A model generated the notes under the pieces. It did no database searches. It saw only the letters and a program-made list of their open reading frames with translations, and had not been told where the DNA came from. Below are positions 1 to 7,389 of a DNA stretch of 7,389 nt, one piece after another. This stretch comes from a virus (Duplodnaviria; Heunggongvirae; Uroviricota; Caudoviricetes). A program made the translations under genes and the position numbers. The DNA is taken from IMG/VR virus record IMGVR_UViG_2671180294_000017; one strand, written 5' to 3'. The number at the start of each line of letters is the position of its first letter. The first letter of the stretch is position 1.

Positions 1-651
1 TTATGATTCGCACCACCAAACACCNNNNNNNNNNNNNNNNNNNNNNNNNNNNNNNNNNNNNNNNNNNNNNGGCAAATGTCCAGATATGATAAAATCAATA
101 TTTTTATACGAATCAATAAAACTTTGGAAATGACCGTGGAGTAATTTATCATTTAAAGGATAGCTCGCTGGAAAATCCCTTAAAATACTATCAAACTGAT
201 CTCCAAAAATAAGAAGATTGATGTGAAAAGAATTAGGTAAAGTTTCAACTAATGAACGTACCCTCGCAAACGGTGTAAAGTGGAAGTAAGCGTTTAAAAA
301 GTCCACATCTGACTGTCTTTTTTTATCTGAAAATAATGTATTATCGGTTGCACCCTGTATATAAGCCTCATGTTCACTTTTGATTTGATGCAATTTTTCT
401 ACTGTATAAGTGAATGGATCTCTATCAACAAGAATATGATCATTTGCACAAAGCAGGATAAGATTTTCATAAGAATTGTCATTTGCTAACAGGTCATCGC
501 CCCTTGGTCCTTTTGGGCTTTTGGCTATTACATGAGCCATTTGTCCGATGTGAACCTGCTCTTTAAAAAGAGAAGTTCGGCAAATATTACATTGCCCAGC
601 GGATAGTCCATACAATTTTTTTATTGCTGCTGTAGTAATTGCATCACTCAT
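1..651 (-). CDS. HNH (His-Me finger) nuclease-domain protein, 216 aa; N-terminal HNH motif with an unrecognised C-terminal domain of roughly 130 aa
   Basis: ORF track. Translation carries the HNH arrangement near the N-terminus: CNIC, then HIGQMAHVIAKSPKGPRGDD, then NLILLCANDHILVD (Cys pair, catalytic His, Asn, second Cys/His pair). ATG at 649-651 is preceded on the minus strand by AAGGA 8 nt upstream. TAA stop at 1-3. About 15 codons near the C-terminus lie in the masked run 25-70. Confidence 0.8.
   Translation of the reverse strand: MSDAITTAAIKKLYGLSAGQCNICRTSLFKEQVHIGQMAHVIAKSPKGPRGDDLLANDNSYENLILLCANDHILVDRDPFTYTVEKLHQIKSEHEAYIQGATDNTLFSDKKRQSDVDFLNAYFHFTPFARVRSLVETLPNSFHINLLIFGDQFDSILRDFPASYPLNDKLLHGHFQSFIDSYKNIDFIISGHLXXXXXXXXXXXXXXXXGVWWCES
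25..70. other. Masked/undetermined bases (46 N) inside the 3' part of the HNH gene
   Basis: Run of n in the sequence. Confidence 1.
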
Positions 652-790
652 AAATCAAATCCTTAGATTGCTATTTTATTAACTCAAAACACATATTAAA
701 GGAAAAATCTTTCAGCTTCCACCAACCATAATCAATAGCACTTGCAAAAGTTGTCCTAATGGAACTTGGATCACAATAATTCCAAAAGCA

Positions 791-970
791 TCAAGTACTG
801 GTACTATGANNNNNNNNNNNNNNNNNNNNNNNTACTATGATCCAGTTATAGAGAATGATAAGGGTTAGTACAAAACCGAGGGCATTACGCCAGTGGAATG
901 TTACCTTTTCAATCTCTTCTTTATTCGTTTCAATCTGCCCTTCTACATTCGTTTTCTTTACTTCCTGTTC
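791..970 (-). CDS. Possible 3' end of a gene that starts inside the masked block; visible tail is EQEVKKTNVEGQIETNKEEIEKVTFHWRNALGFVLTLIILYNWIIV, acidic then a hydrophobic helix-like segment
   Basis: Hand translation of the minus-strand frame whose codons include 968-970: 46 consecutive sense codons across 833-970 with no stop, long for AT-rich DNA. If the 23-nt mask length is exact, the frame ends at TGA 791-793. No start codon is visible, so the ORF track could not list it. Frame choice across the mask is unverifiable. Confidence 0.25.
   Translation of the reverse strand, partial: EQEVKKTNVEGQIETNKEEIEKVTFHWRNALGFVLTLIILYNWIIVXXXXXXXXHSTST
810..832. other. Masked/undetermined bases (23 N)
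   Basis: Run of n; flanked on both sides by the same octamer tactatga (802-809 and 833-840). Confidence 1.
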
Positions 971-1573: not shown

Positions 1574-2004
1574 TTCTTTGCGGTATCAATTAATCGTTCT
1601 TTACCATTCTTACCCTTCACTACCTTATATCGTTCACTTAAAAGATTCTTTTTCAGTCCTGAAATGTTGCCCTGCTTAGTTAATCTTGTAGATGAAGTAG
1701 GTATAAACTTATCAATTGCCTTTGGCTGTACCAGTACTTGATAAAGGTACTTAGCCTGAATATCTTTAACCATGATGGTCGATGTAACTGAATTTCTCCC
1801 AACCTTTCTATAGAAGAAAAGGATGGAACGTTGAGTAAAGCCCACTGCCCCACGGTCAACGCTATTATTCAAATCACCCTGCATTCTTTGGGATAGTAGC
1901 TTGGAACGTTTAATTATTTCATTCTGGAATTGATTATTTAATCTAACTCCCTGCGTTTGTATATAGTTCCTTATACTACCAATCCCATTTATTCCACTTG
2001 CCAT
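1574..2004 (-). CDS. Visible 5' part (143 codons) of a basic, Lys/Arg-rich hypothetical protein that continues into the masked block; possibly a nucleic-acid-binding protein or the DNA-binding half of a homing endonuclease
   Basis: ORF track entry 958..2004; only 1574..2004 is real sequence. ATG at 2002-2004 with GAGGT about 6 nt upstream. 143 stop-free codons. Translation MASGINGIGSIRNYIQTQGVRLNNQFQNEIIKRSKLLSQRMQ... is strongly basic. The true 3' end is hidden; the track's 958 end merely assumes the frame survives 603 N. Confidence 0.65.
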
Positions 2005-2013
2005 ATATTTACC

Positions 2014-2448
2014 TCAATTCAAGTACTCCAATAGTTCCTGTACTATTCCGAGTAGTCTTTTTTTATCCTTTGCATTTGGTGATCTAATCTTACTCATCAT
2101 TGCCAGATTCAAACATTCCGGTTTAAGCATCTGATGAAGGATCAGTATTGCCTCTACAATCATTACCTCTCGCATAGTTGCGAAGCACCATAGAATCGTT
2201 TTTGAGTACTGTTCACCATTTTCAATTTTGTTTTTAACGACATTGGAACTACTGAGGTACTCACGCCAGCCATTTTCCTTTGAAGTGGGCTTTAGCTTTC
2301 TCGCATCCTTAACCCGCTGATAGATTTGCTTAGCACCGACATAATTAGAACCATCCTCAAACTGAAAGATATAAACGAAACCAGCATATTCACCGGATAA
2401 CATTTCCTCCTCGCTCCAATCATCCGAGTATTTCCATTCACTCATCAT
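2014..2448 (-). CDS. GIY-YIG family nuclease-domain protein, 144 aa (catalytic domain only; homing-endonuclease-like)
   Basis: Translation contains GFVYIF, then after 9 residues YVGAKQIYQRVKDARK (the GIY...YIG pair plus the conserved downstream Arg), and later REVMIVEAILILHQMLKPECLN (the conserved Glu and Asn spacing seen in I-TevI and UvrC-type domains). AGGAA lies 6 nt upstream of the ATG at 2446-2448. TGA stop at 2014-2016. Confidence 0.8.
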   Translation of the reverse strand: MMSEWKYSDDWSEEEMLSGEYAGFVYIFQFEDGSNYVGAKQIYQRVKDARKLKPTSKENGWREYLSSSNVVKNKIENGEQYSKTILWCFATMREVMIVEAILILHQMLKPECLNLAMMSKIRSPNAKDKKRLLGIVQELLEYLN

Positions 2449-2484
2449 AAATATTCCTATAAATTCATTATAGGTATTTAGTAA
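2449..2484. promoter_or_regulatory. 36-bp divergent intergenic region with a 7-bp inverted repeat (cctataa 2456-2462 / ttatagg 2468-2474, 5-nt spacer), a minus-strand TATAAT (2467-2472) and a plus-strand TATAAAT (2458-2464)
   Basis: Read directly from the sequence. It is the only non-coding DNA between the divergently oriented GIY-YIG and lysozyme genes, so promoter and operator elements for both must overlap here or sit inside coding sequence. No -35 partner was identified. Confidence 0.3.
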
Positions 2485-2934
2485 ATGAGCGATTTAAAAA
2501 CACGATTAAAAGAATATGAAGGTACTAAAGAGTATCAGGCAAATTTGAAGTACTTCAGAAATGGGAAATTCTATCCATATGCTGATAGTTTAGGATGTAG
2601 TACTATTGTATATGGTCACTTAATTCAGGCGGGAGAAGATTTTAGTACTGGCATTACTGAAAGCGAAGCAGACAAGTTACTATCTCGCGATTTAGCCAAA
2701 ACAATTATGCAGGTACAGACATTAGGGTTAAATCTTCCCGATGACTGGAATGATTTTATTATTATCATGACCTTCCAGTTAGGTATTGGCGGGGTGAAGA
2801 AATTCCGTAAGATGTTAGCAGCCCTGAAAGCACATGATTACCTTGAAGCAATTAAACAGGCTAAGTGTTCTCTATGGTACAGGCAGACACCAAACCGTGT
2901 GAATTCCATGATTGCAGTACTTAAAAACAAATAA
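2485..2934 (+). CDS. Phage lysozyme (T4 e-type, glycoside hydrolase family 24), 149 aa; probable endolysin
   Basis: Translation aligns by eye with T4 lysozyme landmarks: LKEYEG (catalytic Glu), ADSLGCSTIVYGHLI (Asp/Thr and the GH motif), ITESEADKLLSRDL, MTFQLGIGGV, and SLWYRQTPNRV (compare T4 SRWYNQTPNR). No signal peptide or N-terminal hydrophobic segment. AGGT about 9 nt upstream of the ATG; TAA stop at 2932-2934. Confidence 0.92.
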   Translation: MSDLKTRLKEYEGTKEYQANLKYFRNGKFYPYADSLGCSTIVYGHLIQAGEDFSTGITESEADKLLSRDLAKTIMQVQTLGLNLPDDWNDFIIIMTFQLGIGGVKKFRKMLAALKAHDYLEAIKQAKCSLWYRQTPNRVNSMIAVLKNK

Positions 2935-2940
2935 AGAAAA

Positions 2941-2974
2941 GGCATAGTACGAATGACATACTATGCCTTTTTTT
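2941..2974. terminator. Bidirectional rho-independent terminator between the convergent lysozyme gene and the small membrane protein gene
   Basis: Perfect 9-bp stem ggcatagta (2941-2949) / tactatgcc (2959-2967) with a 9-nt loop, followed by TTTTTTT (2968-2974) on the plus strand. The A-rich stretch aaacaaataaagaaaa (2925-2940) gives a U-tract for the minus-strand transcript. Confidence 0.75.
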
Positions 2975-3245
2975 ATGGTCGTTGTTTCTGCTGAAGAATT
3001 GCAATAATCCTTTCAATCTTAACATCAAGTTCATGGATTTGTGTTTCCAGTTTACTTAGTGTATCTCTCATCTTATCCTGATCATCCTCAATACGGGAAA
3101 TACTACTTTCCAGTACAGCAATGGTAGTTTCAAGAGTAGCAACGCGAGTTAATAGATCATTCGTATCCTTTGTATTATCTCTAAAGATAGTATAAAGGAA
3201 TACGCATCCAGAAATAACAAGAGCTAAAATAGCACCGATATCCAT
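2973..3245 (-). CDS. Small single-pass membrane protein with a C-terminal coiled-coil, 90 aa; function unknown (candidate lysis-associated or superinfection-exclusion protein)
   Basis: ORF track. Residues 3-21 IGAILALVISGCVFLYTIF form one hydrophobic helix-length segment. The remainder, LLTRVATLETTIAVLESSISRIEDDQDKMRDTLSKLETQIHELDVKIERIIAILQ, is charged with heptad-like hydrophobic spacing. AAGGGA lies 7 nt upstream of the ATG at 3243-3245; TAA stop overlaps the terminator T-tract. Confidence 0.7.
   Translation of the reverse strand: MDIGAILALVISGCVFLYTIFRDNTKDTNDLLTRVATLETTIAVLESSISRIEDDQDKMRDTLSKLETQIHELDVKIERIIAILQQKQRP

Positions 3246-4419: not shown

Positions 4420-7389
<2,970 letters not shown>

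What the first reader, a model, noticed from the sequence alone, without database searches (positions are those of the whole stretch)
1574..2448. GIY-YIG catalytic domain and the downstream basic ORF are in the same frame, separated only by a lone TGA
The GIY-YIG ORF ends at TGA 2014-2016 and the next ORF starts at ATG 2002-2004 in the same frame (read-through translation: ...LEYLN * G K Y M A S G...). The GIY-YIG protein has a catalytic domain but essentially no DNA-binding extension, while the downstream ORF is strongly basic; known GIY-YIG homing endonucleases have both in one polypeptide. Every other stop I could inspect in this window is TAA (HNH, lysozyme, 90-aa, 218-aa, 98-aa and J-like genes), which makes the single TGA stand out. 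Possibilities are a homing endonuclease recently split by a nonsense mutation, a deliberately two-part or read-through enzyme, or coincidence: in-frame adjacency has a one-in-three chance, and the TGA sits inside a good ribosome-binding site (tTGAGGT) for the downstream ATG.
Basis: partly seen in the sequence, partly recalled or inferred. Interest (0 to 1): 0.5.

Follow-up and report, generated by a model that had tools for sequence, protein, structure and literature searches.

The report
Two adjacent prophage genes, not split
The small GIY-YIG nuclease gene and the basic gene after it in this Shigella sonnei prophage are two separate, long-conserved genes that share a reading frame here only by chance, so this is an ordinary gene junction and not a broken or read-through homing endonuclease.

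Summary
On the minus strand a 144-aa SegE-type GIY-YIG ORF (2448..2014) ends at TGA, and the next ORF starts 12 nt later in the same frame.

The interpretation as a split or read-through homing endonuclease does not hold.
- The window is a Shigella sonnei prophage, and unmasked copies show a 192-aa downstream protein.
- All listed clusters of both proteins are stand-alone. Those of the downstream protein are 112-197 aa (full-length 181-197 aa), and none is long enough to be a fusion. The nuclease clusters are 142-148 aa.
- A profile search of 1.84 billion representatives found one hit above 227 aa. It is an unread 657-aa protein with 12 repeated partial matches.
- In 12 diverged lineages the junction is 12, 7, 5, 2 or -1 nt. 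Four of the 12 are in frame, which is the chance rate, and a stop is always present.
- A 5-nt indel explains the TGA and the frame seen here.
- All four genes of this operon end in TGA.
- The pair can be uncoupled. Leclercia separates the two genes, an Enterobacter prophage has deleted the nuclease core, and phage DCP80 has an EndoVII-type gene in that place.
- The downstream protein resembles an HK97-gp10-type minor tail protein, not a nuclease DNA-binding module.
- The nuclease models as one compact domain, like T4 EndoII.

Both genes are under purifying selection. Interest is low.

The parts
2014..2448 (-). Gene for a stand-alone 144-aa SegE-class GIY-YIG nuclease, stop codon included.
2014..2016 (-). 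TGA stop codon of the GIY-YIG gene.
   Evidence: Read directly from the sequence. Relatives have TAA or TGA here, or an ATGA overlap. The TGA position arises from a 5-nt indel relative to the E. coli and Enterobacter relatives.
2011..2015 (-). Shine-Dalgarno sequence GAGGT for the downstream gene. It overlaps the stop codon and lies 6 nt before the ATG.
   Evidence: Read from the sequence. The motif GAGGTAAATAYATG is conserved in six lineages.
1574..2004 (-). Visible 5' part (143 codons) of the downstream gene. The full product is a 192-aa basic protein resembling an HK97-gp10-type minor tail protein. The rest of the gene lies in the masked run 971-1573.
2449..2484 (.). 36-nt spacer between the divergent lysozyme and GIY-YIG genes. 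It contains the inverted repeat CCTATA-N7/8-TATAGG.
   Evidence: Sequence. The repeat arms are conserved and the loop varies across three lineages. Its function was not tested.
2485..2934 (+). Phage lysozyme gene, the divergent neighbour that stays with the GIY-YIG gene.
   Evidence: Pfam PF00959. It sits beside the GIY-YIG gene in every locus that has one, including Leclercia, where the 192-aa gene lies elsewhere.
2937..2971 (.). 15-bp-stem hairpin resembling a terminator, between the convergent 90-aa gene and the lysozyme gene. It marks the end of the tail operon.
   Evidence: Terminator scan on L002 7478-7512, mapped onto the window with the alignment.
712..970 (-). Visible 3' part of the 97-aa holin-like gene, the last gene of the giy-192-103-97 operon. 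It is interrupted by the N run at 810-832.
   Evidence: Pfam PF11351 GTA_holin_3TM, E 2.9e-5. Coordinates follow from the alignments.

Best explanation
These are two independent genes of a late operon (giy, 192-aa, 103-aa, 97-aa holin-like) in a family of enterobacterial prophages, here in Shigella sonnei.

The first gene encodes a complete single-domain GIY-YIG nuclease of the SegE class, 144 aa long. The second encodes a 192-aa basic protein that is most likely a virion minor-tail or tail-completion component with an HK97-gp10-like fold.

The short junction, with the downstream Shine-Dalgarno sequence overlapping the upstream stop, is an ordinary arrangement for translational coupling. The shared frame is a coincidence. 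It was produced in this lineage by a 5-nt indel at the very end of the nuclease gene, which moved the stop from TAA to TGA and changed the stop-to-ATG distance from 7 to 12 nt.

Shown: separateness, conservation, variable frame, purifying selection, the fold assignments and the absence of fusions.

Inferred: the nuclease is active. It keeps the Tyr/Tyr/Glu/Asn core, while the canonical Arg position varies and an invariant Lys lies nearby. It acts without a covalently attached DNA-binding domain, as T4 EndoII does. Its role could be that of a long-resident free-standing homing-type endonuclease or of a phage-serving late nuclease.
For: - Identity of the window: the unmasked stretches aligned by blastn are 100% identical to the S. 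sonnei chromosome CP026802 (L005), and the region lies in a prophage next to mipA/gapA.
- The 192-aa protein has 84 homologue clusters. Full-length ones are 181-197 aa, the shorter ones are partial, and none reaches the roughly 340 aa of a fusion.
- A profile search of 1.84 billion representatives gave 59 hits. Full-length ones are 179-227 aa. The only longer hit is a 657-aa protein with 12 repeated partial matches, which was not read.
- All GIY-YIG homologue clusters are 142-148 aa.
- In 12 lineages the distance from the stop to the ATG is 12, 7, -1, 12, 7, 5, 7, 12, -1, 12, -1 and 2 nt. Four of 12 are in frame, and the stop is TGA or TAA.
- A 5-nt indel explains the local frame and the TGA.
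- The downstream genes of the operon also end in TGA.
- The pair is uncoupled in several places. In Leclercia the order is J, 192-aa, 109-aa, then lysozyme, giy, holin. An Enterobacter prophage has a 282-nt internal deletion of giy and an intact 192-aa gene. Phage DCP80 has homologues of the 192-aa and 103-aa genes behind an EndoVII-type gene.
- Divergence is correlated between the 192-aa and 103-aa proteins (r 0.89) but only weakly between giy and the 192-aa protein (r 0.38).
- The profile of the 192-aa family shows no similarity to the C-terminal regions of full-length SegE-like endonucleases (probability 0.1-0.3%). The giy profile matches their N-termini at 98.5%.
- The giy model is compact (pTM 0.86). 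Its best hits are the I-TevI catalytic domain, PD-T4-3, UvrC and T4 EndoII.
- Both genes are under purifying selection. For giy pN is 0.08 against pS 0.62, and dN/dS is 0.07-0.26 across the two genes.
Against: - The two genes are adjacent and tightly spaced in 12 of the 14 lineages examined, so a functional link cannot be excluded from sequence alone.
- The window's own copy of the 3' half of the downstream gene is masked.
- No expression or protein data were available.
Confidence: 0.9

Rival explanations
1. A single two-domain GIY-YIG homing endonuclease was recently split by a nonsense mutation at 2014-2016.
For: The two ORFs share a frame with only 9 nt between the stop and the ATG. Full-length SegE-like endonucleases in T4-like phages do carry C-terminal extensions: 359 aa in RB16 and 271 aa in Bp7.
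Against: - No fused homologue appears among 84 and 24 clusters. Among 59 hits from 1.84 billion representatives, the only protein above 227 aa is an unread 657-aa repeat-containing oddity.
- The two-gene state is old. Synonymous sites are saturated and both ORFs are under purifying selection.
- Eight of 12 lineages have the genes out of frame or overlapping.
- The downstream profile is unrelated to the C-terminal regions of the full-length endonucleases.
Confidence: 0.01
2. Programmed TGA read-through yields a minor nuclease-plus-basic-domain fusion alongside the two separate proteins.
For: TGA is the leakiest stop codon in enterobacteria (established knowledge). The frames coincide here and in Pluralibacter.
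Against: - The in-frame state is not conserved: it occurs in 4 of 12 lineages.
- Two of those four use TAA.
- TGA is the stop of all four genes of this operon.
- No stimulatory structure or sequence context was identified.
- The arrangement arises from a 5-nt indel.
Confidence: 0.02
3. A deliberately two-part enzyme: the 192-aa basic protein is a separate DNA-binding or targeting subunit that works with the GIY-YIG catalytic subunit.
For: The genes are adjacent and tightly spaced for translational coupling in 12 of the 14 lineages. The 192-aa protein has pI 10.8. In phage DCP80 a different small nuclease, of EndoVII type, sits directly upstream of the homologue.
Against: - Leclercia separates the two genes and places the 192-aa gene directly after the tail-tip gene J.
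- An Enterobacter prophage keeps the 192-aa gene after deleting the nuclease core.
- Divergence of the 192-aa protein tracks the 103-aa protein, not the nuclease.
- Its family and fold hits point to minor tail / HK97 gp10 proteins.
Confidence: 0.06

Closest known systems
T4 Seg-type free-standing GIY-YIG homing endonucleases (SegE; Pfam PF19835)
   Same: The N-terminal catalytic domain is homologous (Pfam E 2e-16; hhalign probability 98.5% to RB16p243). Like the seg genes, this one sits between phage genes, and signals for the downstream gene are embedded in its 3' end. That arrangement is described for seg genes in PMC2988022.
   Different: - There is no C-terminal DNA-binding region. These proteins are 142-148 aa, against 205-359 aa for the Seg-type enzymes.
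- The gene holds a fixed position beside the lysozyme gene and is inherited across diverged prophages under purifying selection, rather than being sporadically distributed.
- Homing and site-specific cleavage were not tested.
Phage T4 endonuclease II (DenA), a single-domain GIY-YIG nuclease
   Different: The sequence family is different (13% identity). EndoII's role in degrading host DNA is not shown for this protein, and the genomic context differs.
HK97 gp10 family tail-completion / minor tail proteins (Pfam PF04883; PDB 9mu2 chain P)
   Different: The protein is about 80 residues longer, with a long N-terminal helix and a lysine/arginine-rich hairpin. No sequence-level match reaches a curated threshold. 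The gene lies after the tail-tip and lysis genes, not in the head-tail joining block.
Translationally coupled operon junctions (a stop codon overlapping or abutting the next gene's Shine-Dalgarno sequence and start)
   Same: GAGGT overlaps the stop 6 nt before the ATG. Relatives use ATGA or TAATG overlaps at the same junction.
   Different: Nothing differs. This is the ordinary case.

Membership tests
GIY-YIG nuclease superfamily (SegE class) | GIY ... YIG motif pair about 10 residues apart at the N-terminus | tested here: met
   GFVY(26)...NY(36)VG(38). F24, Y26, Y36 and G38 are invariant in 21 sequences. Pfam PF19835 scores 60.7 bits against a cut-off of 25.
GIY-YIG nuclease superfamily (SegE class) | Conserved catalytic Arg, Glu and Asn (motifs B, D, E; PMC2988022) | tested here: inconclusive
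   E99 and N114 are invariant. The Arg position (R45) varies (R/G/S/K), while K40 is invariant and may substitute for it. Activity was not tested.
GIY-YIG nuclease superfamily (SegE class) | GIY-YIG alpha/beta fold | tested here: met
Free-standing homing endonuclease (Seg-type) | Catalytic domain joined to a C-terminal DNA-binding domain in one polypeptide | tested here: not met
   All relatives are 142-148 aa with only one C-terminal helix. The downstream ORF is not that domain.
Free-standing homing endonuclease (Seg-type) | Sporadic presence or absence between otherwise collinear genomes, and site-specific cleavage of genomes that lack the gene | tested here: inconclusive
   The gene is present at the same place in 13 of the 14 lineages whose upstream context is intact. 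In one it is lost through an internal deletion, not a clean absence. In DCP80 an EndoVII-type gene occupies the place. Cleavage cannot be tested with these tools.
Split or read-through gene | Orthologues exist as one continuous ORF, or the in-frame arrangement and a leaky stop are conserved | tested here: not met
   No fusion-sized homologue was found in three searches; one unread 657-aa hit with 12 repeated partial matches is the only long protein. Four of 12 lineages are in frame, with a mix of TGA and TAA stops.
HK97 gp10-like tail-completion / minor tail protein (192-aa ORF) | Sequence match to PF04883 above the curated threshold | tested here: not met
   Only 2 of 40 members match, at E 0.15. 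PHROG 1924 'minor tail protein' is matched by 12 of 40 members, best E 6e-5.
HK97 gp10-like tail-completion / minor tail protein (192-aa ORF) | gp10-like alpha/beta fold | tested here: inconclusive
HK97 gp10-like tail-completion / minor tail protein (192-aa ORF) | Presence in virions at the head-tail junction | not testable with these tools
   This needs virion proteomics or cryo-EM.

The most novel reading that the evidence does not exclude
The stand-alone 142-148-aa SegE-like GIY-YIG nuclease may not be a selfish homing gene. It may instead be a domesticated, phage-serving late nuclease that belongs to the lysis cassette. It always lies beside the lysozyme gene, is directly coupled to the holin gene in Leclercia, and has dN/dS of about 0.07. 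Possible roles are degrading or nicking host or competitor DNA around the time of lysis, or excluding related phages. In that case it would work as a single-domain enzyme in the manner of T4 EndoII.
Probability: 0.25. Interest if true: 0.4.

Novelty: not a real feature. Interest (0 to 1): 0.1.

Why it matters
The main value is as a negative result. An in-frame stop between a catalytic domain and a basic ORF looks like a split or recoded gene, yet comparison across about a dozen diverged relatives shows an ordinary coupled junction.

It also gives provisional identities to two uncharacterised prophage protein families found across Enterobacteriaceae. One is a single-domain SegE-class GIY-YIG nuclease that travels with the lysis genes. 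The other is a basic protein that resembles an HK97-gp10-type minor tail protein and travels with a 103-aa partner.

The nuclease family may merit a small follow-up, because conserved GIY-YIG nucleases without a DNA-binding domain are rarely studied in temperate phages.

Tried and rejected
- DNA searches of the region against cultured phages found nothing by megablast, and only a short lysozyme match in distant mode.
- Only one of 5,426 complete E. coli genomes has a partial match. The element is essentially specific to S. sonnei at the DNA level.
- Pfam, NCBIfam and PADLOC give nothing significant for the 192-aa and 103-aa proteins.
- The PDB sequence search with the 192-aa profile found nothing even at E 10.
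- The afdb50 fold library was not available.
- The promoter scan found no more sites than in shuffled sequence, so no promoter is claimed.
- The masked stretch 971-1573 could not be recovered exactly. It is 603 N, against 519 nt in the otherwise identical L005, and the two other N runs also differ in length from the reference. Coordinates inside the mask are therefore not given.
- A defence-system reading of the nuclease was considered and dropped. The only PADLOC hit is a generic 'homing endonuclease' model at E 4e-5.
- The literature search found no paper on this gene pair.

Full report
**Observation.** Both ORFs lie on the minus strand. The first runs 2448..2014 (144 aa) with its TGA at 2016..2014. 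The second begins at ATG 2004..2002, and (2448-2004) is a multiple of three. Reading through gives ...GIVQELLEYLN*GKYMASGI. The first ORF is a SegE-type GIY-YIG domain (Pfam PF19835, E 2e-16; PHROG 'homing endonuclease'). The second is strongly basic (pI 10.8). GAGGT (2015..2011) overlaps the stop 6 nt before the ATG.

**Origin and the masked part.**
- An exact-sequence look-up of the 144-aa protein places it in Shigella sonnei chromosomes (CP026802, HE616528 and many drafts), inside a prophage next to mipA/gapA.
- The unmasked stretches of the window aligned by blastn are 100% identical to CP026802 (L005).
- In these copies the downstream gene encodes 192 aa. It is followed by a 103-aa gene, a 97-aa holin-like gene (PF11351) and an HNH-like gene. 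A lysozyme gene is transcribed divergently, 36 nt upstream of the nuclease gene.
- The 348-aa ORF that the ORF listing draws through the N run is an artefact.
- Some S. sonnei copies, including the one identical to the window, carry a 1-nt insertion that truncates the 192-aa protein to 166 aa.
- All four genes of the operon end in TGA, two of them as ATGA overlaps.

**Is it one gene split in two?**
- A search with the 192-aa protein returned 84 clusters. Full-length ones are 181-197 aa, the shorter ones are partial, and none is long enough to be a fusion.
- A search with the 144-aa protein returned 24 clusters of 142-148 aa plus one partial.
- A profile of the 192-aa family searched against 1.84 billion representatives gave 59 hits. 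Full-length ones are 179-227 aa. The only longer hit is a 657-aa protein with 12 repeated partial matches, which was not read.
- I collected the locus from 12 diverged lineages: E. coli, Enterobacter, Pluralibacter, Scandinavium, Buttiauxella, Pseudescherichia, Phytobacter, Serratia and others.
- In those lineages the distance from the first base of the nuclease stop to the downstream ATG is 12, 7, -1, 12, 7, 5, 7, 12, -1, 12, -1 and 2 nt. The stops are TGA or TAA.
- Four of 12 are in frame, which is exactly the one-in-three chance expectation. A stop is always present.
- Alignment of the junction shows how the S. sonnei arrangement arose. A 5-nt indel (TTGAA) at the very end of the gene moved the stop from the TAA in GAGGTAAAT to the TGA in TTGAGG, and changed the distance from 7 to 12 nt.
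- Synonymous sites are saturated while non-synonymous change is low in both genes. For giy pN is 0.08 against pS 0.62, and dN/dS ranges from 0.07 to 0.26. Both have therefore been maintained as functional, separate ORFs for a long time.

**Are the two genes obligate partners?** They are not.
- In Leclercia the 192-aa gene and its 103-aa-type partner directly follow the tail-tip gene J. Lysozyme, the nuclease and the holin form a separate block further on, and the nuclease gene overlaps the holin start.
- In one Enterobacter prophage a 282-nt internal deletion has removed the nuclease core, while the 192-aa gene and its Shine-Dalgarno sequence remain intact.
- In phage DCP80, homologues of the 192-aa and 103-aa genes follow an EndoVII-type gene instead, again close to a related lysozyme gene.
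- Across ten lineages, divergence of the 192-aa protein tracks the 103-aa protein (r 0.89). It tracks the nuclease only weakly (r 0.38). The nuclease tracks lysozyme better (r 0.62) (small sample, indicative only).

**What the two proteins are.**
- The nuclease keeps Y26, Y36, G38, E99 and N114 invariant. The canonical Arg position varies, and K40 is invariant (motif roles from PMC2988022).
- Full-length SegE-like endonucleases of T4-like phages are 271-359 aa. The nuclease profile aligns to the N-terminus of the RB16 one at 98.5% probability. The 192-aa profile has no similarity to the rest of the RB16 or Bp7 protein (0.1-0.3%).
- Twelve of 40 family members hit PHROG 1924 'minor tail protein' (best E 6e-5), and two hit Pfam HK97-gp10_like weakly.
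- Foldseek against viral models lists a 'putative tail component'.
- These signals are individually modest but they agree. None points to a nuclease DNA-binding module.

**Mechanism.** The junction is an ordinary coupled junction, and ribosomes that terminate at the TGA sit on the Shine-Dalgarno sequence of the next gene. The nuclease most likely acts as a stand-alone enzyme. Whether it is a long-resident homing-type gene or serves the phage cannot be decided from sequence. Its constant position beside the lysis genes and the strong purifying selection keep the second option open. The 192-aa protein is most likely a virion component.

**Verdict.** The finding is ordinary, and interest is low.

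Noticed in passing
window 810-832 (N run) with flanks 802-809 and 833-840: The 23-N run inside the holin-like gene is flanked by an 8-bp direct repeat (TCATAGTA on the minus strand). That sequence is present only once in the otherwise identical S. sonnei reference L005. The pattern looks like the target-site duplication of an unresolved or masked insertion such as an IS element.
   Followed up: partly
masked 971-1573; L005 8942-8944 versus L002 8941-8943: Some S. sonnei copies (L005, L006, L007) have a 1-nt T insertion that truncates the 192-aa protein to 166 aa. Others (L002-L004) are intact. The window matches L005 elsewhere, so it may carry the frameshift, but the site is masked.
   Followed up: partly
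window 1-651 (-), running past the window start: The HNH-like protein is 264 aa in unmasked copies. Its N-terminal 100 residues match PADLOC models of CBASS-type HNH effectors and the candidate system PDC-M68A (E down to 4e-23). It may be a defence or exclusion gene at the prophage end. The 216-aa ORF with a TAA stop seen in the window is out of frame beyond the N run.
   Followed up: no
window 2937-2971: A hairpin with a 15-bp perfect stem (AAAAGGCATAGTATG/CGTACTATGCCTTTT) and T/A runs on both sides lies between the convergent 90-aa gene and the lysozyme gene. It is probably a bidirectional terminator.
   Followed up: no
window 2449-2484: The 36-nt spacer between the divergent lysozyme and nuclease genes holds the inverted repeat CCTATA-N7/8-TATAGG. 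The arms are conserved and the loop varies in S. sonnei, E. coli and Enterobacter relatives. It may be an operator or a hairpin. The promoters of both genes would have to lie inside the neighbouring coding regions.
   Followed up: no
window 4420-7236 (-) and beyond; L003 and L005 upstream parts: The tail-tip J-like gene is intact in L002 (1100 aa). IS elements (rve transposases) interrupt it in S. sonnei 53G and CP026802. The window's 938-aa TTG-start ORF is the truncated remainder, so the prophage is decaying in S. sonnei.
   Followed up: partly
window 2973-3245 (-): The 90-aa protein has an N-terminal transmembrane helix followed by a coiled coil (weak DUF2730 match). Related TM-plus-coiled-coil genes sit at the same place in Leclercia (113 aa) and DCP80 (153 aa). 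It may be a lysis accessory of the spanin or holin type.
   Followed up: no
L001 (Escherichia phage DCP80) 4847-7901: The only cultured phage with a homologue of the 192-aa protein has a syntenic block: a TM-coiled-coil gene, an EndoVII-type nuclease, the 183-aa homologue, a 99-aa homologue of the 103-aa gene, and a lysozyme 37% identical to the window's. A different small nuclease family thus occupies the slot held by the GIY-YIG gene in the prophages.
   Followed up: partly
protein P0127: A 657-aa representative matches profile positions 87-130 of the 192-aa family in 12 separate stretches. It could be an odd repeat protein or an assembly artefact, and it was not examined.
   Followed up: no
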